DNA from: Candidatus Dojkabacteria bacterium
GTDB lineage: Bacteria > Patescibacteriota > Dojkabacteria > J137
Assembly (NCBI GenBank): GCA_040006935.1
Contig: JBDTVZ010000003.1
Location: forward strand, 139,988-203,987
DNA length: 64,000 nucleotides
Direction of reading: 5' to 3'
Of this stretch, positions 31,684-55,548 are shown one piece after another. The notes beneath the pieces were generated by a model that had not been told where the DNA came from, did no database searches, and saw only the letters and a list, made by a program, of their open reading frames with translations. The stretch's first letter is position 1. Every line of letters starts with the position of its first letter. Both the position numbers and the translations under genes were made by a program.

Positions 31684-31686
31684 ATT

Positions 31687-34073: not shown

Positions 34074-34147
34074 CTATTAATTGAGTACATTTTTGTGGTG
34101 AAAGATAGTAAAATTACCTCTATTCAATCAATTTTAACATTAAATTA

Positions 34148-34879: not shown

Positions 34880-34881
34880 TC

Positions 34882-35945: not shown

Positions 35946-35954
35946 TTTCTAACT

Positions 35955-37100: not shown

Positions 37101-37102
37101 CT

Positions 37103-38522: not shown

Positions 38523-38538
38523 TTCTTCTGCTTTGGAA

Positions 38539-39390: not shown

Positions 39391-39881
39391 ATAATTGTGA
39401 TATTTAAAGTACCGACAATTATACCTAAACATATGCTAAATAGCACATCTGATGCGTAATGATGTTTTAGAGTTATTCTTGAAAGTGCAACTAGGAATGC
39501 ATAACATGTCACCACAATCCCAAGATAAAAATTCAAGTTAAAGCACAATGGTAAGATTTGGAATGCTGTAAATGTATGTGCTGATGGAAACGAATATTGA
39601 TCGGGTCCAAGTCCAGTAAGTCTTTTCAAATGAGATTTACTAGGCTCTACCGGCCTTGTTCGTTTGATAATTCTTTTTAATATGAAAATAAAAATATCTG
39701 CAATAAAGAACACTACAATATTCAAAAGAATAGTATTATTCAAAAATACGAAGTTGATAAACAAAAAGAAAATATAAGTTATTTTTGGGTTAATCGAAAA
39801 AATTAGAATTAAATTTCTAATTTTTGATTTCCTTAAAAACTCTGTTTTTTCAAATACAAAATTGTCTAATTCGTTGATCAT
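39387..39881 (-). CDS. PAP2-family membrane phosphatase (Rv3807c-like).
   Basis: PAP2 motifs KRTRPVEP ... PSAHT ... SRITLKHHYASD. Confidence 0.75.
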   Translation of the reverse strand: MINELDNFVFEKTEFLRKSKIRNLILIFSINPKITYIFFLFINFVFLNNTILLNIVVFFIADIFIFILKRIIKRTRPVEPSKSHLKRLTGLGPDQYSFPSAHTFTAFQILPLCFNLNFYLGIVVTCYAFLVALSRITLKHHYASDVLFSICLGIIVGTLNITII

Positions 39882-39882
39882 A

Positions 39883-40104
39883 TTATAAAGCAGTTCTACC
39901 CATAATCAGATTAAGCAAATCTTTAACACTTATCAAAGCTACTTTTATCCCATGTACTTTATCTGGAGTAAGTGCAAAAACAAAATAATCTATAAAGAAA
40001 ATTAAAAATACGATTAATATTAGTGACTCTATAACTATTTTATTTTGGACTAGTTTTTTAAATATTTGTTTCATAAATTGCATAAGTATGTAAATCGCTT
40101 GCAT
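39883..40104 (-). CDS. Small hydrophobic protein between the PAP2 and GT-C genes.
   Basis: 73 aa with 1-2 TM helices; it overlaps the GT-C 3' end by 47 nt. It may be real or may reflect an alternative C-terminus of the GT-C. Confidence 0.3.
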   Translation of the reverse strand: MQAIYILMQFMKQIFKKLVQNKIVIESLILIVFLIFFIDYFVFALTPDKVHGIKVALISVKDLLNLIMGRTAL

Positions 40105-42304: not shown

Positions 42305-42423
42305 TAGTTACAACAATAATTAGGTATAATATTAAATAGTTTATAACATAATACTTAAAATATGGACAAATATCTAAACTACAGTAGAGTTATGGGATTG
42401 AATATAAATCAATATATATTATA

Positions 42424-43698
42424 ATGAATCCCATGGATAAAATAAAAAAATTTATTGGTATATATCAAAATTTTGGTCTAAGTTACTTTCTGGATTTGAT
42501 TATCAGAAAAGCATCCTTCGGGAAGATAAATTTAAATATTAAACCTAATTTTGATAAATTTCTAGAAAACAATGTTTCATCGGATCACTCAAAGAAACAA
42601 ATTATCTTCTTTGTCCCTTGGTTTACTTTTGGGGGAACAGATATTGTAAACTACACGCTCCTTAATAATATGGACCAAACTAAATTCCAGTTCCATCTCT
42701 TCTCTACAATCCGAGGAGCAAACAATATTTGGTTTGATAAATTTAAAGCTATTAATAACGAAATTTTTCATCTTCCTGATTTAATATCAGAAGATAATTA
42801 CGAAGAGTTGATAAAAAAGTATATTAAGTATGTGAATGCAGAGACTTTTTTTGTTTCTAATTCATCTAAAGGTTATGACTTAATCCCATTCGTCAGAAGA
42901 GAATTCCCTCAAATTAAGATAGTCGATCTTTTACATGGACAAGGAGGCTCTAAAGAAAGTGGTGGTTTCCCAGAATATTCTAAAAATCTAGATAAATATA
43001 TTGATACAAGAATTGCAATTAATAATTTCTTAAAGAACTATTTAATAGAAAAATATAATATAGATCCTAAAAAAATAACAGTAATCCAAAATGCTATTGA
43101 ATTCAGTGATAAAGTGGAGAAAGGTATATATAGATCAAAACAAAAAGTGGATGAGAACGAATTTGTTGTTACGTACTTAGGAAGATTAGCACCAGAGAAA
43201 CATCCTGAAATTATTGTAAAAATAGCAAATGAGCTTGTTAATAATCAAGGTGTGGGAAATATCAGCTTTTTTATTGGAGGCGATGGACCACTTTTCGACG
43301 AGGTATCCAAAGAAATTCGAACTTTAAAACTAGGAAATAAAATTCATCTATTAGGCTATTATCCGAATAATGAAGCGGTCAAAATTCTAAGTGATTCTAA
43401 CCTTCTTGCTGTGACATCTGAGATGGAAGGTTCTCCCATTGTAATTCTAGAAGCAATGAATTTAGGAGTACCCGTCCTAGCAAGTAAAGTTGGTGGAATT
43501 CCAGAACAAGTGGACGATCAAATAACTGGCGTATTGATAGAGTTCAATGAGAACTTTGTAGAAACGGCCGCCCAAGAAATTCTTGAGTTGAAAAATAATA
43601 GAGAAAAGCTCTCCTCAATGGGTTTAAAATCCAAAGAGAAAGCAACAACAACTTTTTCAGTTAAAGAGATGATTTCGAAGTACGAAAGTTCACTTTAA
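42424..43698 (+). CDS. GT4-family glycosyltransferase.
   Basis: EGSPIVILEAMNLGVPVLASKVGGIPE. Confidence 0.8.
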   Translation: MNPMDKIKKFIGIYQNFGLSYFLDLIIRKASFGKINLNIKPNFDKFLENNVSSDHSKKQIIFFVPWFTFGGTDIVNYTLLNNMDQTKFQFHLFSTIRGANNIWFDKFKAINNEIFHLPDLISEDNYEELIKKYIKYVNAETFFVSNSSKGYDLIPFVRREFPQIKIVDLLHGQGGSKESGGFPEYSKNLDKYIDTRIAINNFLKNYLIEKYNIDPKKITVIQNAIEFSDKVEKGIYRSKQKVDENEFVVTYLGRLAPEKHPEIIVKIANELVNNQGVGNISFFIGGDGPLFDEVSKEIRTLKLGNKIHLLGYYPNNEAVKILSDSNLLAVTSEMEGSPIVILEAMNLGVPVLASKVGGIPEQVDDQITGVLIEFNENFVETAAQEILELKNNREKLSSMGLKSKEKATTTFSVKEMISKYESSL

Positions 43699-46521
43699 GA
43701 TTTCGTTAAATGCTTTCTGCATTTCTTTTAAAGAAAACTCTCTTTCAACTGTTTCTCTAGCATTTTTACCTATACCTTGAACAATCTTTTTATCTTCTGC
43801 TAAAAGACTAACAATAAGATCTGCAAAATCATTAACTAAGTTATTGCCATATTCAATTAAGAATCCGTCCCTGCCGTGTTCAACCATTTCCGGTATTCCA
43901 CCAACTTTAGTACTTATAACAGGAACTTCCATCGCCATACTTTCTAACGTACTTACTGGCATTCCCTCCATTTCAGAAACTATTAATGAGTAATCTGTAT
44001 CTTTTAATATGTAGGGTGCTTCAGAATTTTGAAAAAAATCTGTAAAGAAAACTGATTCATTAAGTTTTAAATCTTCAACTTCAGTTTGTAGTTCCTTCAA
44101 CATTGGACCACCACCAGCAATTATTAATTTTACATTCCTTATTTTTCGAACGTTTATTAATTCATTTGCAATTTCAACAAGTTTTTCAGGACTCTTATCA
44201 AAATTTAACCTGCCTAAATAACTTAGAACAATATCTTTTGCACTCATTTTAAATTTCTTTCGATACTTCCCAGCCTCAAATTTTGTAGGATCAAATTTGT
44301 TTAAATCTATTCCATTATGGACGACCAAGATCTTTCCTGGATTTACTCCATACTCGTTCACCATTAATTCCTTAAGCATTTTACTAGCCACGATATGAGT
44401 TTCAATATGTTCATCAAATTGGACGCAGTATTTAGGGTAACCACCACCTTCGTTTTTCATACCTTGCGCTTGGATCAGGTCCATAATCCTTATCTTTGGA
44501 AATACTTTTTTAATCTCAGGAATCATGTCAAATCCAGCTTGGCTATTTCCAATCAAAATAGTATCTATGTGGCCTAGTTTTATATACTCCTTAATAAATG
44601 CAAAATAGAAGTTTTCATTTACATACTCAGACAAGTGGAACATATTTGGAGTAAGTTTTTTAAATTCTTTCTCCCAAGTATGGTTTGATAAAAGAGTTGT
44701 AAAAACGTGAGTATTAAATTCCTTTGGATTTAATCCGGCAATAGTATCCAGCATTAACTTATCAAAGCCTCCGGCAACAAGCCACGGAAAAATAAACATA
44801 ATATTTTTCTTATCTTCATTAAATTTAGCGCGATCATTTATGAATGTAGAAATATTATTATAGTCATCTCTGATTGAATATTTCATTACAAATCTTTTCT
44901 GAGGATCGAGGTTTAATATTAAATTATTACTTTCTTCGAATAAGTATAATTTTGTATTGCCAATTCCAGTTTCAAGCTTGCCAATCGCAAAGTCTATATG
45001 TTCCTCTTTTAAATCAAAAGACTCTTTATCCTTGTCATCATTAAGAATGGCTACAATTTGTAACTTTGGATATCTCATCTTAATTTCAGGAAGATGTAAA
45101 TATAAAAAGTTTGATTTGGATACAATTAAAGTAGAGGTTTTTCTGGTCTCGATTAGGTAGTATAAAATCTCACGCCAGTTATCTTTATTTGGATAAAGTT
45201 TCCCGAGATGGAAAATGTCACTAGTTAAATCCTCAAAATTATAAGGAGATTCAAGTAAATAACTTTCGAAATCACTAGTTGTAACAAAACCTATGTTAGC
45301 ACCAGTAATTAATTTAGTTTTACTTGCGAAATTGTAAATGTATCTAGATTCATCTTCTATTCCTAAAGTTTCGGCAACAAATAGTATATGAGTTCTTTGA
45401 TTATCATTGGTTCGATCTGCATCCAATAAATTTAGTAGGGGATTTTTTACTGTATATTTCTTAAGTTTGTTTACAATATTTTGAATATACTTTCGGTTGG
45501 TAATTGCCTTAATATGTTTATTCCTTATTGTACTTACCCAATGCATATGCCTATCGTGTGATTTCTGACTCTCTGTGTGTCCATGTCTTCTATATAAAAG
45601 TAAAGGTTCGTGAACAATATCACTTGCAGCACTCTGCTCTGCCATTGATATCCAGAAATCCCAATCCTCGTAACCTTTTATTTTTGAATCATAAGGACCC
45701 ACTTTCATTCCTAATTCCCTTCTAAAAATTGCAGAACAATGTTGAGTATTTTCATGAACAATTGATCGAATATCTAAAATTCCACGTTCAAAGGTAAAGC
45801 TGGCATCTCCAAATTCTTTATGCCATGTATTACATACGTCTAAATTCCCAAGTTCAAGCTTAAGTAAACATTTTTCTAAATATGTAGGTTTAAGTTTATC
45901 GTCTGCATCTAATCTACAAATATATTTTCCTTTAGCGTGCCTAACTCCATTGTTAAACGCTCCTGGAATATAGGTATTTTCTTCTTGAAAAATAACTCGA
46001 GTCTTAGGTTTTTTGAGACTGTGGATAATATCAATCGAATATGGTTCAGTCGAAGCATCATCTACAATTATAATTTCAAAATTCTGGAAAGTCTGGTTAA
46101 GTACAGAGTCCACTGCTTGTTCTATGTATCTACCATAGTTGTGATATGGAATAACTACGCTGACAAGTGGTGCACCTTTTTTCCATTTTGTTAATTCCAC
46201 TTCTACAGGTAAACTGGGTTTAACAACAACGGGTTGAATAGTATTTGGAGTCATTCGTGCCTTTATGGCTCGAGTCGGGGGATTTAAAATTCTTTTTGCT
46301 CTCTCGGGTAATATTAATTTCCCTATTAAGTAAACACTTCTGAAAATCTTTCTCGGCACAGTATCAAACCTGAAAGTGGAGTAAAAGCGGTAAAATGCGT
46401 TATCCCTTAATATATATGAATCGTATTCTACTCTTTTATTGATTGCATCTAGCTCCCTATTTCTATTTAATAAAAATGTTCTTTCCTTTTCCAAAAAGGC
46501 TTTTTCATCAAGATCGTCCAT
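43690..46521 (-). CDS. Bifunctional GT2 (N-terminal) - GT4 (C-terminal) fusion glycosyltransferase, 943 aa.
   Basis: N-terminal LVSVVIPYHNYGRYIEQAVDSVLNQTFQNFEIIIVDDAS...RLDADD and C-terminal EGMPVSTLESMAMEVPVISTKVGGIPE. Confidence 0.75.
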   Translation of the reverse strand: MDDLDEKAFLEKERTFLLNRNRELDAINKRVEYDSYILRDNAFYRFYSTFRFDTVPRKIFRSVYLIGKLILPERAKRILNPPTRAIKARMTPNTIQPVVVKPSLPVEVELTKWKKGAPLVSVVIPYHNYGRYIEQAVDSVLNQTFQNFEIIIVDDASTEPYSIDIIHSLKKPKTRVIFQEENTYIPGAFNNGVRHAKGKYICRLDADDKLKPTYLEKCLLKLELGNLDVCNTWHKEFGDASFTFERGILDIRSIVHENTQHCSAIFRRELGMKVGPYDSKIKGYEDWDFWISMAEQSAASDIVHEPLLLYRRHGHTESQKSHDRHMHWVSTIRNKHIKAITNRKYIQNIVNKLKKYTVKNPLLNLLDADRTNDNQRTHILFVAETLGIEDESRYIYNFASKTKLITGANIGFVTTSDFESYLLESPYNFEDLTSDIFHLGKLYPNKDNWREILYYLIETRKTSTLIVSKSNFLYLHLPEIKMRYPKLQIVAILNDDKDKESFDLKEEHIDFAIGKLETGIGNTKLYLFEESNNLILNLDPQKRFVMKYSIRDDYNNISTFINDRAKFNEDKKNIMFIFPWLVAGGFDKLMLDTIAGLNPKEFNTHVFTTLLSNHTWEKEFKKLTPNMFHLSEYVNENFYFAFIKEYIKLGHIDTILIGNSQAGFDMIPEIKKVFPKIRIMDLIQAQGMKNEGGGYPKYCVQFDEHIETHIVASKMLKELMVNEYGVNPGKILVVHNGIDLNKFDPTKFEAGKYRKKFKMSAKDIVLSYLGRLNFDKSPEKLVEIANELINVRKIRNVKLIIAGGGPMLKELQTEVEDLKLNESVFFTDFFQNSEAPYILKDTDYSLIVSEMEGMPVSTLESMAMEVPVISTKVGGIPEMVEHGRDGFLIEYGNNLVNDFADLIVSLLAEDKKIVQGIGKNARETVEREFSLKEMQKAFNEILK

Positions 46522-46545
46522 AAAATTCTTTTAAATAATTATAAT

Positions 46546-47553
46546 TTGATATATATTCATTGTATGAATCCTGTAAGAAACATTATACCTAAAGTTAAAA
46601 CAATAATTAAAGAATTCCTTGGTTTAAACTACCCATATGTTTATGTTCAAAGACGACTTAGCTCTTTTGCAAAAGTCGTTTCTCCAATCTCTAATAAGGA
46701 AGTATATAACAAAGAGGTAGATATTATAATGCCTATCTATAACAGATTAGCGGAAACAAAAATGGCTATTGAGTATTTATTTAAGAATGCCAATATAAAA
46801 TTCAAACTAATCCTTGTTGATAATAACTCAGATAATAAAACGCAGGAATATCTTAAGAATTTATCACATAAAAATATTAAAGTAATTTTTCTTAAAGAAA
46901 ATCTTGGTGCTTCAATCGCCCGAGAATCTGGATTAAAAGAGTCACAGAATGAGTTTGTAGCATTTGTTGATAACGATATCTTAATCATGCCAAATTACTT
47001 TGAAAATCTTCTAACAACAATTCAAACTGATAATAAAATTGCTGGGGTCCAATCCAAAGTTGTTCTACCAAATTTAAAGATTCAAATAAATACTCCAACT
47101 TTCATGATAAAAGATCAAGATATTGTCTTCACAGATAAAGATATTGACAAAAAATTCGACGACAAATCCACTTTTGAATCTAAAACATGTAACTATATTC
47201 CAATAGGTGCAACTTTATGGAGAAGAGAAGTTTTTAACAGGTTCAGCTTTGACGAAGGAATGAATACAGCTTTTGAAGATAATGACTTCGCATATTCTGT
47301 ATATAAGGGAGGATATATTTTTAGAAACTGTCCTAAAGCAATTGCTTTGCATATAAATTCAGAATTCTCTCCCAAAACCATTCAAGATAATAGTTATATG
47401 GCAGGAAGATATTCAAATGATAAATTACTCAAAAGTCTTAAAATCTTCTATAAAAAACATCAGCTAATTTTCTATTTTAAGACTAAAGAAGGGTTTGCTA
47501 AATATTTAGGTTTTAGCAATCCAGAAGAATATGAAAACTCCCTCAAAGCCTAA
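46546..47553 (+). CDS. GT2-family glycosyltransferase.
   Basis: VDIIMPIYNRLAETKMAIEYL...LVDNNSDN...FVDNDI. Confidence 0.7.
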   Translation: MIYIHCMNPVRNIIPKVKTIIKEFLGLNYPYVYVQRRLSSFAKVVSPISNKEVYNKEVDIIMPIYNRLAETKMAIEYLFKNANIKFKLILVDNNSDNKTQEYLKNLSHKNIKVIFLKENLGASIARESGLKESQNEFVAFVDNDILIMPNYFENLLTTIQTDNKIAGVQSKVVLPNLKIQINTPTFMIKDQDIVFTDKDIDKKFDDKSTFESKTCNYIPIGATLWRREVFNRFSFDEGMNTAFEDNDFAYSVYKGGYIFRNCPKAIALHINSEFSPKTIQDNSYMAGRYSNDKLLKSLKIFYKKHQLIFYFKTKEGFAKYLGFSNPEEYENSLKA

Positions 47554-48488
47554 AGTACTTGCCCATTAAATATCTTCAAGAACCAACTTAACAATTTGTA
47601 TGGAGGTGTAGATTTTATTTTAGTTATTTTGTTCTTTAATCTATCTAATTCTTCACTTTTTACGGATAAGATTTTTTCTGTCTCGACTAATTCATTAAAG
47701 ACTTTCTTATTCTCAGCAACTAATATATCGTAATCATTTATCGTTGCAATGATTCTTTTTTCCTCTTGTAAAATTATTTCAATATAATTTTTTTTATAAA
47801 ACTCTTCGTTATTCTCAATTACTTTTCTCAAGAGTTCAATTTTCCTCTTCCTCGCCTCAACTATCATTGAATTTTTCTTTACTCGATAATTAAATAATTC
47901 TTCTGGAATACAAATCCACTTATAACCTTTCGCAATAATTGAAATCCAAAAACTCATATCCTCAAATCCACCATGTGCCATGTTTGAAGAATATCCCCCA
48001 ACTTCTTCCCAAACCTTGCGCTTAAACATTGAAGCAACATGAACTCCAGTACCTCCCTCTGTTGCTAACTTCATTGGATCGTAATCCGAAGTTTTCCAAA
48101 GTTCATCGATTTCACCAAAAGTTCTTACCCAGGTTGTTGCTATTGCAACTTTTTCATCAGAATTATCTAATGCACTTACACATTTTTCTAAAAATTGCGG
48201 AAAATATTTATCGTCAGCATCAAGGCAGCAAATATATTCACCTTTTGCAATTTTAATACCATTGTTTCTTGCATTGGGAAGCCCTTGATTTTCAGTAGTC
48301 AGTACTTTTGTTTTTGGTTTATTGTAATTAGCTAATAGCTTATTAGTTGCCTCATCAGTAGAACCATCATTAACAATGATAATTTCAAAGTCTTGGAAAG
48401 TTTGTGCAAGAACTGAGTTTACTGCCTCATCAACATATTCTCCATGGTTATAGCAAGGAATTACAACTGAGACTTTAGGTTCAGCCAT
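47550..48488 (-). CDS. GT2-family glycosyltransferase.
   Basis: VSVVIPCYNHGEYVDEAVNSVLAQTFQDFEIIIVNDGSTDE...CLDADD. Confidence 0.8.
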   Translation of the reverse strand: MAEPKVSVVIPCYNHGEYVDEAVNSVLAQTFQDFEIIIVNDGSTDEATNKLLANYNKPKTKVLTTENQGLPNARNNGIKIAKGEYICCLDADDKYFPQFLEKCVSALDNSDEKVAIATTWVRTFGEIDELWKTSDYDPMKLATEGGTGVHVASMFKRKVWEEVGGYSSNMAHGGFEDMSFWISIIAKGYKWICIPEELFNYRVKKNSMIVEARKRKIELLRKVIENNEEFYKKNYIEIILQEEKRIIATINDYDILVAENKKVFNELVETEKILSVKSEELDRLKNKITKIKSTPPYKLLSWFLKIFNGQVL

Positions 48489-48489
48489 T

Positions 48490-49185
48490 TTACTTATTTT
48501 TAATAAATATCATTGCATTCTGTGATAGCCACCATGCAACTTTCTTTTCTTTTAAACTTTCTCTCATTTTCATCGTATCTTCCTTTTTATATTCAAATCC
48601 TTGTTCCTCAAAAAGTTTAATCCAATATTCATTAGGCTGCTCATTAATATGGTCATCTCCACCTTGTCCCGGAATCGCAGCAGTAAAGAATAGCTTATCT
48701 GCATGTCTTGTCATATTACCAACTAAAGTAGAAGCAAATTTAGCCTGTAAATGCTCTGCAACTTCTATACAGATTACAAGATCAAATTTTTTCCCTAACT
48801 CTAACTTCTTTCTTAAATCGAAAACTTGAATATATTTAGGATCAACTAATGCATTTTGTTTTGCCCAGTCGCTTCCATCAACCCCCTGTGCATCAACCCC
48901 CCGTTTCAAAAATTCTCTTAGGTAAGGACCATTTCCGCAACCAACGTCCAGCAATGTTTTAGGTTGAAAATAATTATATAGTTCATCAATAAATCTATTC
49001 ATATTGGGAAGATTTGAAATATCTTCGTAATATTCGCCATTATAAATTGTGCTAATTTCATTTTTACCCTGTACTCTTGCAAGGAATTTCCTAACTTTAT
49101 ATTCTAAAGATTTAGAAGCTCTGAAGATTACGTATTTGAAGCCGTGATTCTTGAAATATAAATAGTAATTTGAAAAAAGATTCAT
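48490..49185 (-). CDS. Class I SAM-dependent methyltransferase.
   Basis: Motif I LLDVGCGNGPYL; 1-nt gap to the downstream GT2. Confidence 0.7.
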   Translation of the reverse strand: MNLFSNYYLYFKNHGFKYVIFRASKSLEYKVRKFLARVQGKNEISTIYNGEYYEDISNLPNMNRFIDELYNYFQPKTLLDVGCGNGPYLREFLKRGVDAQGVDGSDWAKQNALVDPKYIQVFDLRKKLELGKKFDLVICIEVAEHLQAKFASTLVGNMTRHADKLFFTAAIPGQGGDDHINEQPNEYWIKLFEEQGFEYKKEDTMKMRESLKEKKVAWWLSQNAMIFIKNK

Positions 49186-49252
49186 AACATTATCTGATAA
49201 AATATTGCTACAATTATAATCTAAAAAAGTAATTTGTTATACAGATTTTATT

Positions 49253-50209
49253 ATGCTAAATGAGATTAGAGATATTTTATTATCGATAGTTCTATTTATT
49301 TTTTTTAAACCTGTTCTTCTTGTTGGTAGACTTCTGCTATCTAAGAAAGCTTATAAGGCGCTTTCATTTAAATTAATAACCTTCACTAACAATGTTTTCG
49401 GTTATTATCGAGATCAATTATCCGATTATAATAAAATAAAATATGACATGAGGAAATATCGAGATACTTACGATAGAAAAGGGTTAGAATTATATTTTCA
49501 ATTAGTCTCGGCAGAGGATTTATTTTTAAATAAAAAAATCTTAGATTTTGGTTGTGGAGTAGGTGGAAAAGCTTTAGAAATTTTAAAATATAATCCAGAG
49601 CACGTTATGGGAATTGATTTATCGAAAAGAGATATCGATTATGCTAAGGAACTTTTAAATGATTCGAATAAATCAAAATTGTTTTTTGAATATAAAGATA
49701 TTCTCGACCTCAAAGATCCTGAATCATTCGATAGTATCGTATCTTTCACAGTCTTTGAACATGTGGATACTCCCTTGTTATTACCAATTCTTGATAAAAT
49801 GTACGAACTATTAAAAAAGAATGGAAATTTATTAATAGTATTTAATCATTTTAATGATAGATTCGGTTCCCATCTAAAAGAATATATTTTCCATCCATGG
49901 CCTCAAAGTTTATTTGATGAGGAAATGATTTACGAATACTGGAATCAGTCACTAATTTCAGATAAGAACTCAAATGATAATAGTTATTTCCCGAAAAATT
50001 ACAGACATGGAGTAGGAAACCATAATGAAGATTGTTATATAAATCTAAATAAATTAAATATCAGTGATTTCGAGAAGATAATTAAGCAGACTAAATTTAA
50101 ATATGTAGACAGATACGATTATTCTCGATTGAAGATTCTAGATAAGTTAAATTTTCTACCTTCTAAATATCTACAAGGATCTAGTGTTTATTATCTTAAG
50201 AAGGGTTAG
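49253..50209 (+). CDS. Class I SAM-dependent methyltransferase.
   Basis: Motif I ILDFGCGVGGKALEIL. Confidence 0.65.
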   Translation: MLNEIRDILLSIVLFIFFKPVLLVGRLLLSKKAYKALSFKLITFTNNVFGYYRDQLSDYNKIKYDMRKYRDTYDRKGLELYFQLVSAEDLFLNKKILDFGCGVGGKALEILKYNPEHVMGIDLSKRDIDYAKELLNDSNKSKLFFEYKDILDLKDPESFDSIVSFTVFEHVDTPLLLPILDKMYELLKKNGNLLIVFNHFNDRFGSHLKEYIFHPWPQSLFDEEMIYEYWNQSLISDKNSNDNSYFPKNYRHGVGNHNEDCYINLNKLNISDFEKIIKQTKFKYVDRYDYSRLKILDKLNFLPSKYLQGSSVYYLKKG

Positions 50210-50210
50210 A

Positions 50211-51503
50211 TTAATCTAATTTTGTAACAGTGAATTGTGGTTCCACAAATACTTTACCCCAACGTACTTGTTTGTAGTAAACATCAATCTTTTCAAAGTT
50301 TGCAAGTTGATGTAGATCTTGATAATAAGGTGGGTAATCTAAACCTTCACTTATTACAAATGAAACGTAATAAATTCCAGGATTTAGTGGTAGATTTGCT
50401 TCGCATTCATATTCTAAAATATTTCCAATTTTTACTGGTGGGGTTTTTAAAGGCTTAAGATTATATGTTGAATGTAATCCATATAGTTGATGATTAATAT
50501 CATCTTTAATCATTACACCTAATATCATTTGATTGTTTGTATCAATATTAGATTTAACTTTAACTTTGAACTTAAAATTCTGATTACTTTCCAATTTCAA
50601 AGTAGACTTGCCTGTGTGGTCAATAAATTCGTAACTTATGATTTCTGCCTTCTCTCCACCGATTGTATAACTTAACTCATGAGCTCCCACTTCGGTTGTA
50701 TTGTCGTTTTTCTTTTCTTTTTTCTCCTTTCCTTTCACATCTTTTTTACTCGTACCTTCTGTTTCTTGAAATAACTGCTCATATATATAAGTTACCTTGT
50801 CTGGTTTACCATCTTCTACTAATTCATGATGATCAATTAGAATTGCTCTATCGCAAAGATCTCTAACTGCCTGCATACTATGTGATACAAAAAGAATAGT
50901 TTTTTGCTCTTGTTTTAATCTTTTTATAACTTCAAAAGATTTTTTTTGGAAAGCTAAATCACCAACGGCTAAAATTTCATCCAATAAAAATACATCTGCA
51001 TCAGTTTGAATTGCAATTGAGAAGGCTAGCCTTACAACCATTCCACTGGAGTAATTCTTCACTGGAGTGTCTATAAATTCTCTTAATTCCGCAAAATCTA
51101 TAATATCGTTAAGTTTGTTATCTAAGAATTTTTTAGTCATTCCTAGAATTGTCCCGTTTAGATAAATATTTTCTTTACCAGACAATTCAGGATTGAATCC
51201 AACTCCTAGTTCTAGAAAAGGAACTAGTTTTCCATTTATCTTAACTTTACCACCTTTATCGGGAGAATAAATCCCTGCAATGATTTTCAAGAGAGTGCTT
51301 TTTCCACTTCCGTTTTTACCTACAACTCCTACAAATTCTCCTTTTTTTATTTCAAAACTAATATTTTTTAAAGCTTTAAAATGCCTAGATTTCCCTTGAT
51401 TAAAGAAAGAACTAAATAAAGATCTCAGAGTTTCTTTTTTATCATCTCTTAATAAGAAAGTTTTAGAAACATTTTGAATTGTAATTGCATTATCCTTATT
51501 CAT
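50211..51503 (-). CDS. wzt: Polysaccharide ABC exporter ATP-binding protein (Wzt/TagH-like) with a ~160-aa C-terminal extension.
   Basis: GKNGSGKSTLLKIIAG Walker A, LSGG-like YSSGMVVRL, a Walker B; then a Lys-rich linker and a beta-rich C-terminal domain. Confidence 0.8.
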   Translation of the reverse strand: MNKDNAITIQNVSKTFLLRDDKKETLRSLFSSFFNQGKSRHFKALKNISFEIKKGEFVGVVGKNGSGKSTLLKIIAGIYSPDKGGKVKINGKLVPFLELGVGFNPELSGKENIYLNGTILGMTKKFLDNKLNDIIDFAELREFIDTPVKNYSSGMVVRLAFSIAIQTDADVFLLDEILAVGDLAFQKKSFEVIKRLKQEQKTILFVSHSMQAVRDLCDRAILIDHHELVEDGKPDKVTYIYEQLFQETEGTSKKDVKGKEKKEKKNDNTTEVGAHELSYTIGGEKAEIISYEFIDHTGKSTLKLESNQNFKFKVKVKSNIDTNNQMILGVMIKDDINHQLYGLHSTYNLKPLKTPPVKIGNILEYECEANLPLNPGIYYVSFVISEGLDYPPYYQDLHQLANFEKIDVYYKQVRWGKVFVEPQFTVTKLD

Positions 51504-51504
51504 T

Positions 51505-52284
51505 TTAGAAAAATTCCGCTATTTGTTTAACTTTGTAATTAAAATAGATCCAACCTAGAATCACAATTAATACGCTAACTGCGAAGTAAGCCAACATCAA
51601 GGGTAAATTAATATCACCATAAATTCCAAACCCTGCTCTAACCTGATTTAAAATTATTCCAATAGGATTGAATCTTATTATCTTAGCTGTAAATGAATCA
51701 AATAAACTATTGTCCACCACATACATAATTGGTGTTGCCCAGAATAATAGAAAGAATGCGAGTTCGAAAATATTTTTTAAATCTCTAAACCTAACTGTAA
51801 GAATACTTGTAAAAAAAGATAAACCTAAATTAAATAAGAAAATAATCAGTGTCAAAAACAGAACATACAAAATTCCCATTGGGTTTATTTCTTTACCCTG
51901 CAGAACTAATATTATAAAAATGAAAATTAGATTAATGAACAAATTTATTACACCACTAAACAATGCACTGATTATCGCTATCTGCCTTGGGAAATTAACT
52001 TTCAATATAATATGCGCTCTTTCCAATAGTGACATCTGTCCTAGTATTGCGAGCTCATTAAAGTATGTATAAAAAACTATTCCAATTAATAAATATAAGG
52101 GGTAATTTTCTATACTTTGACTTGATATCTTAGACCACACAAAGTACATTACAAGAAATGTAGCGTATGGTTTGATTAAAACCCATAGAATACCAAGAAT
52201 TGAATTCTGATATCTCATCTTAAAACTCGTTTTCACCAGCTCATTCAGAAGGTCAATTTTTGCTCTATCAATTATTTTTGCCAT
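51505..52284 (-). CDS. wzm: ABC-2 type polysaccharide exporter permease (Wzm/TagG-like).
   Basis: 259 aa with 6 TM helices in ABC-2 topology; a 1-nt gap to wzt. Confidence 0.75.
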   Translation of the reverse strand: MAKIIDRAKIDLLNELVKTSFKMRYQNSILGILWVLIKPYATFLVMYFVWSKISSQSIENYPLYLLIGIVFYTYFNELAILGQMSLLERAHIILKVNFPRQIAIISALFSGVINLFINLIFIFIILVLQGKEINPMGILYVLFLTLIIFLFNLGLSFFTSILTVRFRDLKNIFELAFFLLFWATPIMYVVDNSLFDSFTAKIIRFNPIGIILNQVRAGFGIYGDINLPLMLAYFAVSVLIVILGWIYFNYKVKQIAEFF

Positions 52285-52319
52285 AAAAATGATTATATCA
52301 TTAAAGATTGTTCTTTTTA

Positions 52320-55049
52320 TTATTCGTAGTAATACCTAGTATTAACAGCACCATCAGACGTTCTAACAGCTTGGAATAATTTACTACTCATGTAAGCCAT
52401 AGTAATATTGCTAGCCATAGTAATATTTTTAACCCAAGGTTGCCAAGTATTCCCATCTGTTGTATATCGAGTCCAAACAGCATTATCAAACCCTCTGACA
52501 GATTGAAATAATTTTATTGTACTAAATGATTGCATTGAAACCTCGTATGGTGTGGTCCCCCCATCCATAACCCAAGATTGCCAGGTATTCCCATCAGTCG
52601 AGTATCGAGTCCAGATATGATTATCCCACCCCCTCACAGATTGATAAATTCTTGCATTAAATACGCTAAGCGTAGGATTTGAAGGAGTTCCTCCATCTCT
52701 GATCCAAGGTTGCCAAGAAGATCCATCAAAGTATCTGGTCCAGACTGCACCTTCAAATCCTCTCACTGCTTGATACAATCTGTTACCCGTTGGACCACTA
52801 GGATCAAATGAAGCCATACTTATTTCTCCGGGAGTTGTCCCCCCATCTTTAGACCATGCCTGCCAAGCTGCACCATCGAAATACCTATTCCAAACATTAT
52901 TATCTCCGCCTCTCACTGTTTGGTAAAGTCGACTTGTTCCGTATGCTGCCATAGAGATTTTTCCTGCTGTCCCCCCATCATTTACCCAAGGTTGCCAAGT
53001 ATCTCCATCAGTTGTGTACCTAGTCCAAACTCTTCCATCTACACCCTGCACCACTTCAAACAAAAAGTCTTGAGAACCATTATTAAAATAAGCAAGCGTT
53101 GGAGTAATTAAAGAACTCCCACTACTAACCCAAGGTTGCCAAGTATTTCCGTCTGTTGAGTATCTAATATAGACTCTGGAGTCATATCCTGTTACTGCTT
53201 GGTAAACCCTTTCAGTCCCTCCAAATGTAGTCGTAGCCATTGCAACGTCGTAAGGTGTTCCACCATTTCGTTGCCAGGAAGACCAAGAATATTGACTTAC
53301 TGAATTCAAAGCATTTTGCGCATCCAAAAGTCCATAACCTGTATCTAAATCTAAGCCACCGCCGCTACCCACGCTACCATTTGCACTACTTCTCAATATA
53401 GTTTTCACATCTACAGGAGCTAAGGAATCTGACTTGGCTCTTAGCATCACAGCCACTGCTGTTACTTGCGGTGCCGCAAAAGATGTTCCTTCCCAAAATT
53501 TATTACCAAAAGTTGTAAAACTACGAGATGTTACAGGAGTTACAGACCATGAGTCTGCGTCTTGAAAAGTTTGAGCATAAGCTGCACTTCCAGCTACGCC
53601 ACTACCACTTGCGTTCCCAACTGGTGCTACTAAATCTAATCCTGTCCCATAACTTGCATAATCTGCTTTAGTATCTGATGTGTTAGTAGCTCCAACAGCA
53701 ATTACATTTCCATAAGAATTTGTATAAGCTGCCGGATATTCGATAGATGATAGATTTTGATTTCCACTTGCTGCAACTAGAAGCACACCTAATCCATTTG
53801 CATAACTAATTGCACTTTCTACTGTTGCACTTGGTGAAGTTAATCCAGCAATACTTAAGTTTATAACTTTGGCACCGTGATTTGCTGCGTAACGAATGCC
53901 TTGTGCAATTGTGAAAGTTGTACCAGTACCAGTGTAATCTAAGACTTTAATAGGCATAATTGTAGTTTTAAATGCCGCCCCAAAACTGCTAGTGCCATTG
54001 TCCGTTAAAGAGGTGATCATATTTGTTACATATGTCCCGTGCCCATCGTCATCGTTTGGATGACCTTCTTTCGTTACCCATGAGACTTGAGCATCGCAAT
54101 CCGCATTCCATTCAGCATCAGTTGGAATTAAAGCAAGATTATCCACAACAGCTATAAAATCTACACCATGCAAGTCATCGCAAATTAAATTTGCATCGTC
54201 ATCATGGCCTGTGTAATTCTCTAAAGAGTTTGTCCAAATATTTATCCCATTTATTTCCGGTGCAGCAGTAAAGTTTAAAGGAGTTCTGTCGGCAAAAGTT
54301 CCACCACCTAGGTTTTCTCGATAAGTTGCTCCAGTATTTGTTTCGAATGCTAATCCAGTATCAAGCACTGCAACTGTTAATGTACTCGAGCCACCGCAAA
54401 GAGTTCCGGATGGGCAACCTTGATCTTTAAATGCCTCAGGAAGTTTAGTTTTAGTATGGAACCAGTGATTAGTATTATTAAAATCGTTAGGTTTCGCAGT
54501 AGATCCCGTAACTGTCCAACTATCTTTTTTTACAATTTGATCTGTTTCAATATATTCAACAGAATCATCTAAATTAAACCTTGTCATCTGATCAATCTTT
54601 TTATCTTCACCATCTTGATCTTTATCAATTTTTATTAACCTTACATCTTCTCCAAAAAACTTTGTAAATCTTGAAGGCACTGTGTTTTCTGGTGCTACTT
54701 CTTGCGTAACACGATTTGCAGATTCCTCATCGTTGAATTTAACTATAAAAAAATCATTTTTAGACTCTTCAGCAATAGCTTTTTTTACTTTCTCAACAGC
54801 ATTATTAACTTTTTCTTCACCGAAATCTCTGTACCTTTCCTGGAGATTTGATTCTAGGTCTTCTGGAATTTGTCTCGGTGCAAGATCAGTTGCTATTGGT
54901 TCGTTTGTCGAAACAGGCAAGGAAACAACTCCATCTTGTGCAGATAAAGTTCTTGAATGAAATGCAGGCAAGAGAATTAGAACTATAAATAGTAAAGAAA
55001 TAACTTTAGAAGGTGTATTTTTTAATTTTGTGAGTTCGCAATATTTCAT
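52320..55049 (-). CDS. Secreted subtilisin-like (S8) serine protease fused to a C-terminal 7x tandem ~47-aa W-x-x-W repeat (beta-propeller / lectin-like) domain.
   Basis: Catalytic triad contexts VAVLDTGLA (D), HGTYVTNMI (H) and GTSFAAPQVTAV (S). The C-terminal 322 aa contain seven copies of ...(V/L)(Y/F)Q.VRG.D..VWTRY..DG.TWQPW..DGGT... The start is set to the Met preceding the signal peptide; the tracked ORF starts at 55142. Confidence 0.8.
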   Translation of the reverse strand: MKYCELTKLKNTPSKVISLLFIVLILLPAFHSRTLSAQDGVVSLPVSTNEPIATDLAPRQIPEDLESNLQERYRDFGEEKVNNAVEKVKKAIAEESKNDFFIVKFNDEESANRVTQEVAPENTVPSRFTKFFGEDVRLIKIDKDQDGEDKKIDQMTRFNLDDSVEYIETDQIVKKDSWTVTGSTAKPNDFNNTNHWFHTKTKLPEAFKDQGCPSGTLCGGSSTLTVAVLDTGLAFETNTGATYRENLGGGTFADRTPLNFTAAPEINGINIWTNSLENYTGHDDDANLICDDLHGVDFIAVVDNLALIPTDAEWNADCDAQVSWVTKEGHPNDDDGHGTYVTNMITSLTDNGTSSFGAAFKTTIMPIKVLDYTGTGTTFTIAQGIRYAANHGAKVINLSIAGLTSPSATVESAISYANGLGVLLVAASGNQNLSSIEYPAAYTNSYGNVIAVGATNTSDTKADYASYGTGLDLVAPVGNASGSGVAGSAAYAQTFQDADSWSVTPVTSRSFTTFGNKFWEGTSFAAPQVTAVAVMLRAKSDSLAPVDVKTILRSSANGSVGSGGGLDLDTGYGLLDAQNALNSVSQYSWSSWQRNGGTPYDVAMATTTFGGTERVYQAVTGYDSRVYIRYSTDGNTWQPWVSSGSSLITPTLAYFNNGSQDFLFEVVQGVDGRVWTRYTTDGDTWQPWVNDGGTAGKISMAAYGTSRLYQTVRGGDNNVWNRYFDGAAWQAWSKDGGTTPGEISMASFDPSGPTGNRLYQAVRGFEGAVWTRYFDGSSWQPWIRDGGTPSNPTLSVFNARIYQSVRGWDNHIWTRYSTDGNTWQSWVMDGGTTPYEVSMQSFSTIKLFQSVRGFDNAVWTRYTTDGNTWQPWVKNITMASNITMAYMSSKLFQAVRTSDGAVNTRYYYE

Positions 55050-55128
55050 ATTAATACATTGTTTTGATGAAATTTTACATACAATCCAAAGAAAAGTACA
55101 ATGATATATATATTTATTAGTAGTTAGT

Positions 55129-55548
55129 ATGAATTTCTTCACAAGAAATATTATCCCAGGATGTGTTTCTATATTAATATCCCTAGTATTGTCTGTTTGT
55201 ATAGGTGTAGTTTATTGGCAATTTAGCGTAGCTTCCACCTCGGCGTTAAAAGATCAATCAGGTGTAGGTGCATATGGTTTCGCAATGATTTGTCTAATTA
55301 TTTGTTTGCTTCCAGTAGTAATGATAGGTATGAATGTTCTGATAACATTATTTTTCTTTAAAAATGAGAAAAAACTTTTACCTGTAAATATATTAGTCTC
55401 TATAGTATTAGCATTTATTCTTCTGATATGCAGTGGAGTGACTATTGTGGGTTATTCCATAGTTTCAGGAAGCTATTTACAACGTTCTGCAGAAGGAACC
55501 TGTCACGGATTGGATTGCTTTAGAGGAATTTATACGAGAGATTATTAA
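55129..55548 (+). CDS. Hypothetical 4-TM membrane protein.
   Basis: Hydrophobic segments; no motif recognised. Confidence 0.35.
   Translation: MNFFTRNIIPGCVSILISLVLSVCIGVVYWQFSVASTSALKDQSGVGAYGFAMICLIICLLPVVMIGMNVLITLFFFKNEKKLLPVNILVSIVLAFILLICSGVTIVGYSIVSGSYLQRSAEGTCHGLDCFRGIYTRDY

What the first reader, a model, noticed from the sequence alone, without database searches (positions are those of the whole stretch)
52320..55142. Subtilase fused to a seven-repeat W-x-x-W beta-propeller-like domain directly upstream of the glycan exporter
After a complete S8 catalytic domain, the last ~320 aa consist of seven ~47-aa repeats with an almost invariant (L/I)(Y/F)Q.VRG.D..VW.RY..DG..WQ.W..DGGT core. 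Their periodicity and conservation are consistent with a 7-bladed propeller of the tachylectin/PLL lectin type. The gene sits 35 nt upstream of wzm-wzt on the same strand. A glycan-targeted secreted protease would be an unusual combination.
Basis: partly seen in the sequence, partly recalled or inferred. Interest (0 to 1): 0.6.

Follow-up and report, generated by a model that had tools for sequence, protein, structure and literature searches.

The report
Secreted subtilase with PLL-type lectin propeller
A candidate-phylum (Dojkabacteria) bacterium encodes a secreted subtilisin-type protease whose tail is a seven-bladed propeller related to the sugar-binding PLL lectins of Photorhabdus; the fusion is real and uncharacterised, but it recurs in related genomes and is a new variant of known parts, not a new kind of system.

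Summary
A 909-aa gene (52320-55049, minus strand; the 940-aa ORF has a spurious 5' extension) encodes a signal peptide, a complete S8 subtilase with an intact Asp/His/Ser triad, and seven W-x-x-W repeats. It ends 35 nt before wzm-wzt.

The repeat domain is a PLL-family (PropLec7A, Pfam Beta-prop_PLL) heptabladed propeller:
- A profile search of the PDB gives E 5e-33.
- The AlphaFold model has pLDDT 91.7.
- The top 22 Foldseek hits are all PLL/PHL lectins (TM 0.81-0.84).
- Tachylectin is not matched.

The Trp residues of the PLL hydrophobic sugar pocket are kept in 5 of 7 sites, but the polar ligand residues are not. Sugar binding is therefore inferred and the specificity is unknown.

The fusion is not rare. 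At least 34 of the 154 best homologous clusters carry an S8 domain. The same propeller also follows M23, CHAP, lipase and LamG domains.

All interpretable S8-propeller loci lie inside or at the edge of glycan-synthesis clusters, often next to methyltransferases. Adjacency to wzm itself is not conserved.

Best reading: a secreted protease is targeted by a lectin module to a surface glycan, probably the cell's own. Novelty: new variant of a known kind. Interest is moderate.

The parts
52320..55049 (-). Coding sequence of the subtilase-propeller protein (909 aa plus stop). The mechanical ORF extends to a GTG at 55142.
   Evidence: ORF list. The 100%-identical GenBank protein P0155 is 909 aa, 'S8 family serine peptidase [Candidatus Dojkabacteria bacterium]'.
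54936..55049 (-). Sec-type signal peptide, MKYCELTKLKNTPSKVISLLFIVLILLPAFHSRTLSA|Q. It has a Lys-rich n-region, a 15-residue hydrophobic core and a small-x-small (L-S-A) site. There is no lipobox.
   Evidence: Sequence inspection and hydropathy: mean Kyte-Doolittle 3.06 for VISLLFIVLILLPAF. Homologues share the same N-terminal layout. No dedicated predictor was available.
54531..54752 (-). Propeptide-like region (FFIVKF ... VEYIETDQIV), resembling the I9 inhibitor/chaperone propeptide of subtilases.
   Evidence: Conserved block in the alignments of homologues. There is no Pfam I9 hit, so the assignment is by motif and position only.
53331..54383 (-). Peptidase_S8 catalytic domain. Asp261 is at 54360-54362, His368 at 54039-54041, Asn461 at 53760-53762 and Ser554 at 53481-53483. 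Four invariant Cys (243, 249, 321, 349) lie in insertions.
   Evidence: Pfam PF00082 E 1.5e-38. Triad and Cys columns are invariant. Closest solved relatives are savinase/M-protease/thermitase, E 4e-32 to 1e-24.
52323..53294 (-). Seven-bladed PLL-type (PropLec7A / Beta-prop_PLL) propeller, residues 617-940. W-x-x-W motifs are at 53274-53285, 53130-53141, 52986-52997, 52854-52865, 52704-52715, 52572-52583 and 52434-52445.
   Evidence: Repeat analysis. PDB sequence hits to the PLL family. AlphaFold2 model pLDDT 91.7, pTM 0.90. Foldseek top 22 hits are all PLL family.
52285..52319 (-). 35-nt spacer between the protease stop and the wzm start. It contains TGATATAAT (52292-52300), an exact extended -10 consensus 7 nt before the wzm ATG. 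No terminator-like hairpin is present.
   Evidence: Sequence. Only 4 TGNTATAAT matches occur in 64 kb. No minus-strand terminator was found in the scan.
51505..52284 (-). wzm: ABC-2 type permease of a glycan ABC exporter.
   Evidence: Pfam ABC2_membrane E 9.8e-13.
50211..51503 (-). wzt: ABC ATPase with a C-terminal Wzt_C carbohydrate-binding domain.
   Evidence: Pfam ABC_tran E 3e-21 and Wzt_C E 3.4e-19.
30883..50209 (.). The rest of the glycan-synthesis cluster: GT2 and GT4 glycosyltransferases, three class-I SAM methyltransferases (49253-50209 +, 48490-49185 -, 37103-37804 +), a UbiA-type prenyltransferase and a PAP2 phosphatase.
   Evidence: Pfam scans.

Best explanation
The gene encodes a Sec-exported, catalytically competent subtilisin-type (S8A) protease with a C-terminal targeting module. 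That module is a seven-bladed propeller homologous to the PLL/PHL lectins of Photorhabdus.

By analogy with those lectins, the inter-blade pockets lined by the W-x-x-W tryptophans bind sugars multivalently. This would hold the protease on a glycan-coated surface.

The surface I think most likely is the cell's own envelope glycopolymer, made by the flanking glycosyltransferase/methyltransferase cluster and exported by Wzm-Wzt. The enzyme would then work at the cell surface, in the way Cwp84 of Clostridioides difficile or choline-binding hydrolases are held on wall polymers.

Shown here: domain architecture, intact triad, fold, homology to the PLL family, recurrence of the fusion, and embedding in glycan clusters.
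Inferred: secretion, sugar binding, identity of the ligand, and the protease's substrates.

My sub-estimates:
- PLL-type propeller: 0.95
- It binds a carbohydrate: about 0.65
- That carbohydrate is the cell's own glycan: about 0.4
For: - Protease: S8 domain and invariant Asp/His/Ser/Asn.
- Export: signal-peptide-like N-terminus and four invariant Cys, suggesting an extracytoplasmic protein.
- Propeller homology: phmmer against PDB hits only the PLL family (E 1.2e-14 to 2.9e-9). The profile gives E 5.4e-33 to 3e-21, with the next family (Kelch) at 1e-4.
- Propeller fold: model pLDDT 91.7 and pTM 0.90, with all five models at or above 89.7. The top 22 Foldseek hits are PLL, PLL2-5 and PHL (E 3e-15 to 1e-13, TM 0.81-0.84). 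There is then a gap to sialidases at 6e-9 and TM 0.56.
- Pocket aromatics: PHL residue numbering reconstructed from the alignment matches every residue named in PMC5584973. The second Trp of W-x-x-W is kept 7/7, the W199 equivalent is Trp in 5/7, and the W202 equivalent is Tyr 7/7.
- Portable module: the same propeller follows M23 (9), CHAP (7), S8, lipase, C2, C10, C39, YkuD and LamG domains, and also stands alone.
- Context: S8-propeller genes lie in or at the edge of glycan clusters in the window, L066, L081/L082, L083, L085, L086, L087 and L088. A SAM methyltransferase is the next gene in L085, L086 and L088. Two propeller proteins with other architectures (L089, L090) are not in such clusters.
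- Ligand class: PLL-family hydrophobic sites bind fucose and other 6-deoxy and O-methylated sugars (PMC5584973, PMC12203525).
Against: - No binding data exist for any member outside Photorhabdus.
- The polar ligand residues of PLL/PHL are not conserved. The T194 equivalent is Y/V/G/F/W/F/S, the E188 equivalent is Tyr/Phe, and the Gln is absent.
- Pfam's own models do not detect the domain in this protein.
- Synteny with valS-hyp-NUDIX on the other side is just as conserved as that with the glycan cluster, so position may only reflect genome conservation in a small genome.
- I ran no genome-wide background test for glycosyltransferase or methyltransferase neighbours.
- In the complete Dojkabacteria genome L066 the gene is broken over three frames, so it is dispensable there, or the assembly has errors.
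- A CHAP-propeller protein lies in a WXG100/FtsK-SpoIIIE locus. That fits a module aimed at other cells rather than at self.
Confidence: 0.5

Rival explanations
1. The propeller targets glycans on another organism, a host or prey cell, rather than on the producer. Dojkabacteria belong to the candidate phyla radiation, whose members are thought to live attached to other microbes and to scavenge building blocks. A lectin-guided protease, along with the related lectin-guided M23/CHAP wall hydrolases, would then attack or harvest the partner's surface.
For: - The same module is fused to peptidoglycan hydrolases M23 and CHAP.
- In Candidatus Vecturithrix a CHAP-propeller gene lies beside WXG100 and an FtsK/SpoIIIE ATPase. 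That is a type-VII-like secretion setting typical of exported effectors.
- The characterised PLL lectins all act on foreign (insect or human) glycans.
- The propeller diverges much faster than the protease among orthologues: 34-37% against 59-69% identity, and 8 repeats against 7. This fits adaptation to varying targets.
Against: The consistent placement of S8-propeller genes within the producer's own glycan clusters is not explained by this reading. The fast divergence fits equally well with tracking the producer's own hypervariable glycan cluster. No host is known for this lineage.
Confidence: 0.25
2. The propeller is not a lectin. It serves as a protein-binding, substrate-gating or folding/stability domain of the protease, like the P-domain of kexins or the propeller of prolyl oligopeptidases. 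The similarity to PLL lectins would then be only structural ancestry.
For: The polar sugar-ligand residues of PLL/PHL are replaced. Many propellers bind proteins, and a weak Kelch match appears in the profile search (E 1e-4).
Against: - The domain occurs on many unrelated enzymes and on its own, so it is not a protease-specific accessory.
- The only significant sequence relatives with known function are lectins.
- The pocket tryptophans are the best conserved positions of the repeat across the family.
Confidence: 0.12
3. The neighbourhood with wzm-wzt has no functional meaning. The protease gene is a conserved flank of a variable glycan island and is transcribed separately.
For: - In L081, L082 and L083, 4.4-4.7 kb of variable genes, some on the opposite strand, separate the protease gene from wzm.
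- More distant relatives have no wzm-wzt within 8 kb.
- An exact TGNTATAAT box lies in the 35-nt gap, 7 nt before the wzm ATG.
- The valS-hyp-NUDIX flank is equally conserved.
Against: Three separate synteny groups (window type, L085/L088 type, L086/L087 type) all place S8-propeller genes among glycosyltransferases and methyltransferases. No terminator separates the gene from wzm here. L066 repeats the direct adjacency, with a 47-nt gap.
Confidence: 0.35

Closest known systems
PLL-family heptabladed lectins of Photorhabdus (PLL, PLL2-5, PHL; UniLectin class PropLec7A, InterPro IPR007132/DUF346, Pfam Beta-prop_PLL PF26607)
   Same: - Seven W-motif repeats of about 47 residues.
- The repeat signature R-L-x-x-x-V-R-G-x-D-N-x-(V/L)-W ... 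W-x-x-W-x-x-x-G-G aligns position by position.
- The same seven-bladed fold, TM 0.81-0.84.
- The pocket tryptophans are kept in most blades.
   Different: - About 22% identity.
- It is a C-terminal module of a 909-aa enzyme, not a stand-alone 40-kDa lectin.
- It has no Cys, so the disulfide-linked oligomers of PLL/PHL are not possible.
- The Thr of the hydrophobic site and the Arg/Glu/Gln of the polar site are replaced.
- It has an extra invariant Arg (T-R-Y) and an Asp-box-like S/T-T-D-G-x-T-W loop that the PLLs lack.
- It is not detected by the Pfam models.
- The organism is a CPR bacterium, not an insect pathogen.
Wall-polymer-anchored surface proteases and hydrolases, e.g. Cwp84 of Clostridioides difficile (CWB2 repeats binding PSII), choline-binding hydrolases of pneumococcus, lysostaphin (SH3b). 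Cited from general knowledge, not tested here.
   Same: The logic is the same: a secreted hydrolase plus C-terminal repeats that bind an envelope glycopolymer non-covalently. For Cwp84 the gene also lies next to the polymer's synthesis locus.
   Different: The binding module is unrelated (a propeller rather than CWB2, choline-binding or SH3b repeats). The catalytic class differs from Cwp84. Binding to the envelope is inferred here, not shown.
Multidomain bacterial subtilases (S8A) with C-terminal accessory domains (PPC, PKD, Fn3, P-domain)
   Same: Signal peptide, propeptide, S8A core related to savinase and thermitase, and a C-terminal non-catalytic domain.
   Different: The accessory domain is a PLL-type lectin propeller. 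I found no characterised subtilase with this module (literature searches).
BP39L/CV39L seven-bladed lectins (PropLec7C), and AAL/AFL six-bladed fucose lectins
   Same: These are propeller lectins with inter-blade sugar sites. BP39L superposes well on the model (TM 0.80-0.83).
   Different: There is no significant sequence similarity: 11-12% identity, and they are absent from the profile search. AAL-type lectins have six blades and reach only TM about 0.6.

Membership tests
PLL-family / PropLec7A / Beta-prop_PLL propeller | Seven tandem W-motif repeats of about 45-50 residues | tested here: met
   Seven W-x-x-W units at 620-900, 41-50 residues each, with 45% mean pairwise identity.
PLL-family / PropLec7A / Beta-prop_PLL propeller | Significant sequence similarity to solved family members | tested here: met
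   phmmer E 1.2e-14 (PLL5) to 2.9e-9. Profile E 5.4e-33 to 3e-21 for PLL5, PLL2, PLL4, PLL and PLL3, with the next family at 1e-4.
PLL-family / PropLec7A / Beta-prop_PLL propeller | Seven-bladed beta-propeller fold superposable on PLL/PHL | tested here: met
   Model pLDDT 91.7 and pTM 0.90 with 27 strands. Foldseek top 22 hits are all PLL family, TM 0.81-0.84. The single-sequence model gave the same result.
PLL-family / PropLec7A / Beta-prop_PLL propeller | Two tryptophans forming the hydrophobic (fucose / O-methyl) pocket between blades (PHL W199 and W214) | tested here: met
   W214 equivalent is kept 7/7. W199 equivalent is kept 5/7 (Tyr in unit 1, Asn in unit 7). Residue roles are from PMC5584973.
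PLL-family / PropLec7A / Beta-prop_PLL propeller | Polar ligand residues (PHL T194 of the hydrophobic site; R186, E188 and Gln of the polar site) | tested here: not met
   T194 equivalent is Y, V, G, F, W, F, S. E188 equivalent is Tyr/Phe in 7/7. R186 equivalent is Arg 4, Lys 2, Phe 1. The Gln is not conserved.
PLL-family / PropLec7A / Beta-prop_PLL propeller | Detection by the curated Pfam models (PF03984 DUF346, PF26607 Beta-prop_PLL) | tested here: not met
   No hit at E up to 10 in the local Pfam, which lacks PF26607. The precomputed Pfam for the identical protein P0155 lists only PF00082. Relatives P0162, P0074, P0044 and P0086 do carry PF26607.
PLL-family / PropLec7A / Beta-prop_PLL propeller | Measured binding of fucose or O-methylated sugars | not testable with these tools
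   Needs recombinant protein with a glycan array or ITC.
PLL-family / PropLec7A / Beta-prop_PLL propeller | Stand-alone single-domain lectin, often a disulfide-linked oligomer | tested here: not met
   The domain is the C-terminal third of a 909-aa protease. There is no Cys in residues 617-940.
Subtilase family S8 (subfamily S8A) | Peptidase_S8 domain above the curated threshold | tested here: met
   133.2 bits against a cut-off of 21.8.
Subtilase family S8 (subfamily S8A) | Catalytic triad in the order Asp-His-Ser, plus the oxyanion Asn | tested here: met
   D261 (VAVLDTG), H368 (GHGT), N461 (ASGN) and S554 (GTSFAAP), all invariant in 16 homologues.
Subtilase family S8 (subfamily S8A) | Signal peptide and I9-type propeptide | tested here: inconclusive
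   The signal-peptide-like N-terminus is judged by inspection and hydropathy. A conserved propeptide-like block exists, but there is no Pfam I9 hit.
Named S8 equivalogs (mycosin, dentilisin PrtP, QhpE, PatA/G) | Score above the NCBIfam curated cut-off | tested here: not met
   The best is mycosin at 129.7 bits against a cut-off of 278.75. All four are below their cut-offs.
Tachylectin-2 / AAL / PVL lectin propellers | Sequence or fold match, with 5 (tachylectin-2), 6 (AAL) or FG-GAP-type 7 (PVL) blades | tested here: not met
   None is hit by the profile search at E up to 10. AAL, AFL and AofleA appear only at TM 0.57-0.63. No tachylectin chain is among the top 50 hits of either search.
BNR / Asp-box (sialidase-type) propellers | Canonical Asp-box S-x-D-x-G-x-T-W and a six-bladed sialidase fold | tested here: not met
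   The loop reads S/T-T-D-G-x-T-W, one residue shorter than the canonical box. Sialidases reach TM 0.52-0.58. Some homologues do give weak BNR_2 hits (7 of 72).
Wzm/Wzt ABC-transporter-dependent glycan export locus (as a member of the operon) | Co-transcription or conserved adjacency with wzm-wzt | tested here: inconclusive
   Here: same strand, a 35-nt gap and no terminator, but a TGATATAAT box in the gap. Adjacency is repeated in L066. It is not repeated in L081-L083 (4.4-4.7 kb apart) or in L085-L088 (none within 8 kb).

The most novel reading that the evidence does not exclude
The propeller reads the chemical signature of the cell's own exported glycan: a methyl-capped or 6-deoxy sugar terminus made by the neighbouring methyltransferases. 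This would be the same kind of terminal mark that the Wzt_C domain reads inside the cell before export. The protease would thereby be tethered to the glycan coat.

Propeller and glycan cluster would then diversify together. That would explain why the lectin module is swapped or diverged between orthologues while the protease core stays conserved. It would make S8-propeller genes a built-in reporter of glycan type in uncultured CPR bacteria, and a source of lectins for methylated sugars.
Probability: 0.15. Interest if true: 0.7.

Novelty: new variant of a known kind. Interest (0 to 1): 0.4.

Why it matters
The PLL lectins have been studied only as stand-alone virulence lectins of one insect-pathogen genus. 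A 2025 study states that their binding-site organisation is not described outside the family (PMC12203525).

This work shows that the same propeller is a widespread portable module. The exhaustive search found 2281 representative clusters. It is attached to proteases and wall hydrolases, notably in candidate-phyla-radiation bacteria, whose surface biology and partner recognition are largely unknown.

A third of this protein (about 320 residues) is unannotated in GenBank and Pfam. Naming it gives a concrete, cheap experiment: express the propeller and probe glycans and cells. That experiment could reveal what these uncultured cells display or recognise.

The recurrent placement among glycosyltransferases and methyltransferases, together with the family's known taste for O-methylated and 6-deoxy sugars, gives a specific ligand hypothesis.

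It remains an incremental finding. Both parts are known, the fusion is common in its lineage, and no function has been demonstrated.

Tried and rejected
- **Pfam and NCBIfam on the repeat domain.** No usable hit. There was only a sub-threshold CHB_HEX_C match (21.3 bits against a cut-off of 23.6), which I treat as noise.
- **DNA-level tandem repeats.** None found.
- **Horizontal transfer, suggested by the GC bump at 52-54 kb (0.39 against about 0.30).** Rejected. The excess is in codon positions 1 and 2. GC3 is 0.24, like the neighbouring genes, so it reflects Gly/Thr/Ser/Trp-rich composition.
- **Other copies of the propeller in the window.** None.
- **The search for related loci with the full-length alignment.** The patterns chosen were generic S8 motifs, so 79 of the 80 loci are ordinary subtilases. 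Only L066 was informative.
- **Exact look-up of the window protein in the contig index.** Not on record.
- **The word-indexed homologue search.** It saw only 6 to 15 relatives of the propeller. The exhaustive HMMER search was needed.
- **tRNA and Rfam scans of the window.** Nothing found.
- **Tachylectin, AAL, PVL, sialidase/Asp-box and Kelch/WD40 readings.** Considered and rejected on the profile and fold results.
- **A protease-specific folding or P-domain role.** Rejected because the module occurs on unrelated enzymes and alone.
- **A control for neighbourhood enrichment using the 79 generic S8 loci.** Considered and dropped. Queries derived from CPR genes would bias detection towards the test set.

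Full report
**Observation.** The ORF described is present at 52320..55142 on the minus strand (940 aa from a GTG).
- The likely true start is the ATG at 55049 (Met32). The identical GenBank protein is P0155, 909 aa, 'S8 family serine peptidase [Candidatus Dojkabacteria bacterium]', on a 213.5-kb contig, and it begins there.
- The upstream extension overlaps a divergent plus-strand membrane-protein ORF at 55129..55548.
- The window therefore comes from a Dojkabacteria (candidate phyla radiation) genome of about 31% G+C.
- The gene ends 35 nt before wzm (51505..52284, ABC2_membrane), which abuts wzt (50211..51503, ABC_tran + Wzt_C).

**Anatomy of the protein.** From the N-terminus:
- The N-terminus (MKYCELTKLKNTPSK-VISLLFIVLILLPAF-HSRTLSA|Q) has the three regions of a Sec signal peptide.
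- A conserved propeptide-like block follows (FFIVKF...VEYIETDQIV). It has no Pfam I9 hit.
- Pfam Peptidase_S8 covers residues 254-604 (E 1.5e-38).
- Asp261, His368, Asn461 and Ser554 are invariant across 16 homologues. Four Cys in insertions are invariant among orthologues.
- The closest solved relatives are classical S8A enzymes (savinase, M-protease, thermitase).
- None of the named NCBIfam equivalogs reaches its cut-off.

**The repeats.** Residues 617-940 contain seven W-x-x-W units.
- They start at 620, 668, 716, 760, 810, 854 and 900, are 41-50 residues long, and share 45% mean pairwise identity.
- The chain begins with the second half of a unit and ends with the first half of one. This is the arrangement that closes a propeller ring.
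- No repeat is visible at DNA level.
- The local G+C bump is confined to codon positions 1 and 2 (GC3 0.24, as in neighbouring genes). It is compositional and not a sign of transfer.

**Fold and family.**
- Pfam does not recognise the domain.
- A direct search of PDB sequences hits only the PLL family: PLL5 1.2e-14, PLL4 2.9e-12, PHL 1.2e-11, PLL 7.7e-10.
- A profile of ten homologous domains raises this to 5.4e-33 to 3e-21. The next family (Kelch) is at 1e-4, and there is no tachylectin, AAL, PVL or sialidase hit.
- A single-sequence AlphaFold model was only moderately confident (pLDDT 77 in one of five models).
- With the ten-sequence alignment, all five models reach pLDDT 89.7-91.7 and pTM 0.90, with 27 strands.
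- Foldseek against the PDB gives PLL, PLL2-5 and PHL as the 22 best hits for both models (E 3e-15 to 1e-13, TM 0.81-0.84, about 22% identity).
- A five-order gap follows, to sialidases (TM about 0.56) and AAL-type lectins (TM about 0.6). BP39L superposes well (TM 0.80) but without sequence similarity.
- The family is UniLectin class PropLec7A (IPR007132). Pfam's name for PF26607, which is recorded on several relatives, is Beta-prop_PLL.

**Sugar-binding residues.** I rebuilt the PHL numbering from the printed alignment. It reproduces every residue named in the PHL structure paper (PMC5584973): G171, V172, T194, W199, W214, R186, E188, W202 and others. Aligning PHL repeats with the seven units here gives:
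- Second Trp of W-x-x-W (PHL W214): kept 7/7.
- First Trp (W163/W211): kept 7/7.
- W199 equivalent: Trp in 5/7.
- W202 equivalent: Tyr in 7/7.
- T194 equivalent: never Thr.
- E188 equivalent: always Tyr or Phe.
- Arg of the polar site: only partly kept.

The aromatic framework of the hydrophobic pocket survives, but the specificity-determining polar residues do not. An invariant Arg (T-R-Y) and Gln (L-Y-Q) are specific to this subfamily. Sugar binding is therefore a reasonable inference, but the ligand cannot be transferred from the PLL lectins.

**Distribution.**
- An exhaustive HMMER search of 1.84 billion representatives finds 2281 proteins at E up to 1e-3, 666 at up to 1e-10 and 90 at up to 1e-30.
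- Of the 154 proteins in hand, 29 have an S8 domain by phmmer, and 5 of the 72 others scanned have one by Pfam.
- The other partners are M23 (9), CHAP (7), PA14, PPC, lipase/alpha-beta hydrolases, calpain-type C2, C10, C39-like and YkuD.
- LamG partners and stand-alone propellers also occur.
- The propeller is thus a portable module, and S8 + propeller is a recurrent architecture. Several examples are annotated from Dojkabacteria.
- I found no paper describing the fusion.

**Context.**
- The window's gene heads a 21-kb stretch of GT2/GT4 glycosyltransferases, three SAM methyltransferases, a UbiA-type prenyltransferase and a PAP2 phosphatase, in addition to wzm-wzt.
- Orthologues at 43-48% identity keep the order valS - hypothetical - NUDIX - (variable gene) - S8-propeller - glycan genes - wzm - wzt(Wzt_C). 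However, 4.4-4.7 kb of variable genes (GT2, epimerases/dehydratases, acyltransferase, LamG protein) lie before wzm (L081-L083). L084 ends too early to tell.
- In the complete genome L066 the protease gene lies 47 nt before wzm-wzt, as in the window, but it is split over three reading frames.
- More distant S8-propeller genes (31-38% identity; L085-L088) have no wzm-wzt within 8 kb, yet they again sit among GT2, GT4, UDP-glucose dehydrogenase, a Wzx-like flippase or YfhO.
- In those loci a class-I methyltransferase is the very next gene in three of four cases.
- Two propeller proteins of other architecture are not in such clusters. One is a CHAP-propeller in a WXG100/FtsK-SpoIIIE locus and the other is a stand-alone propeller.
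- The conserved feature is therefore embedding in methyltransferase-containing glycan clusters, not adjacency to the exporter. I could not run a genome-wide background test.

**Co-transcription.** No terminator-like hairpin separates the gene from wzm. However, the 35-nt gap contains TGATATAAT, an exact extended -10 consensus. It is one of only four in the window (7.1 expected by chance), and it ends 7 nt before the wzm ATG. wzm may therefore have its own promoter, possibly giving a leaderless mRNA.

**Module evolution.**
- Between the window protein and its orthologues the catalytic domain is 59-69% identical, but the propeller only 34-37%. The orthologues also have eight repeats with a longer loop.
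- The window's propeller is closer to P0011, a LamG + seven-repeat propeller protein encoded immediately downstream of the orthologous protease in L083 (43% identity over the whole domain, 250 bits). Against that protease's own propeller it scores only 31% and 87 bits.
- The binding module has evidently been exchanged or has diverged quickly at this locus, which also carries a variable glycan cluster.

**Mechanism.** My preferred reading is a Sec-exported, self-activating subtilase held on a glycan-bearing surface by a multivalent PLL-type lectin propeller.
- I favour the cell's own envelope glycopolymer as the ligand, because of the recurrent genomic embedding (about 0.4).
- Host or prey glycans come second (about 0.25), supported by the M23/CHAP fusions and the type-VII-like context of one relative.
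- A non-lectin role is least likely (about 0.12).
- The PLL family's preference for 6-deoxy and O-methylated sugars (PMC5584973, PMC12203525), together with the neighbouring methyltransferases and Wzt_C, suggests a methylated glycan terminus as a candidate ligand. This is speculative (about 0.15).

**Verdict.** It is wrong about tachylectin, overstated about rarity, and imprecise about what is conserved in the neighbourhood. The finding is a new variant of known kinds: a PLL-type lectin module on a subtilase, in a CPR lineage. It is moderately interesting, mainly as an entry point to CPR surface glycobiology and as an annotation gap.

Noticed in passing
L066:7300-10260 (Candidatus Dojkabacteria bacterium KatS3mg085, complete genome): The S8-propeller gene upstream of wzm-wzt is split over three reading frames with internal stops. 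It is either a pseudogene or the assembly has frameshift errors. If real, the protease is dispensable in that lineage.
   Followed up: partly
L083:8908-10773: Immediately downstream of the orthologous protease lies P0011, a LamG_3 domain plus a seven-repeat propeller. It is 43% identical to the window's propeller, closer than the orthologue's own eight-repeat propeller (31%). This suggests exchange of the lectin module between neighbouring genes.
   Followed up: partly
window 52323-53294 versus P0156, P0158, P0159, P0160: Among orthologues the catalytic domain is 59-69% identical but the propeller only 34-37%. The orthologues also have eight repeats with a longer 'TDGSxDxxGxxVW' loop. The binding module evolves much faster than the enzyme.
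   Followed up: partly
window 52292-52300 (-): An exact extended -10 consensus, TGATATAAT, lies in the 35-nt gap and ends 7 nt before the wzm ATG. No Shine-Dalgarno sequence is visible. wzm may be made from a leaderless or very short-leader transcript.
   Followed up: partly
L089:1679-8581 (Candidatus Vecturithrix granuli): A CHAP-propeller protein (P0137) lies just downstream of WXG100 and FtsK/SpoIIIE-type ATPase genes, with HNH-domain genes nearby. This looks like a type-VII-like secreted effector locus using the same lectin module.
   Followed up: no
L085:10637-11542, L086:10585-11295, L088:10741-11604: In three of four distant S8-propeller loci the next gene downstream is a class-I SAM methyltransferase. 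In L083 the Wzt ATPase itself carries a Methyltransf_21 domain.
   Followed up: partly
window 59448-59909 (-): A 23S_rRNA_IVP family (four-helix-bundle) protein gene lies just upstream of valS. The same arrangement occurs in L081, so this flank is conserved across Dojkabacteria.
   Followed up: no
window 40058-42304 (-) and 32652-34073 (-): Two large ORFs (748 and 473 aa) inside the glycan cluster have no Pfam match at E up to 0.001. They could be uncharacterised membrane glycosyltransferases or polymerases.
   Followed up: no
window 55129-55548 (+): A small three-helix membrane-protein ORF (weak DUF2569 match, below threshold) diverges from the protease gene. In the orthologous loci this slot holds a different gene (an epimerase/dehydratase in L081-L083), so the slot is variable.
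   Followed up: no
window 52323-53294 (-), loop before each W-x-x-W: The loop S/T-T-D-G-x-T-W resembles an Asp-box (S-x-D-x-G-x-T-W) but is one residue shorter. This probably explains the weak BNR_2 and DUF6242 Pfam hits on some homologues, and why sialidases are the next-best fold matches.
   Followed up: partly
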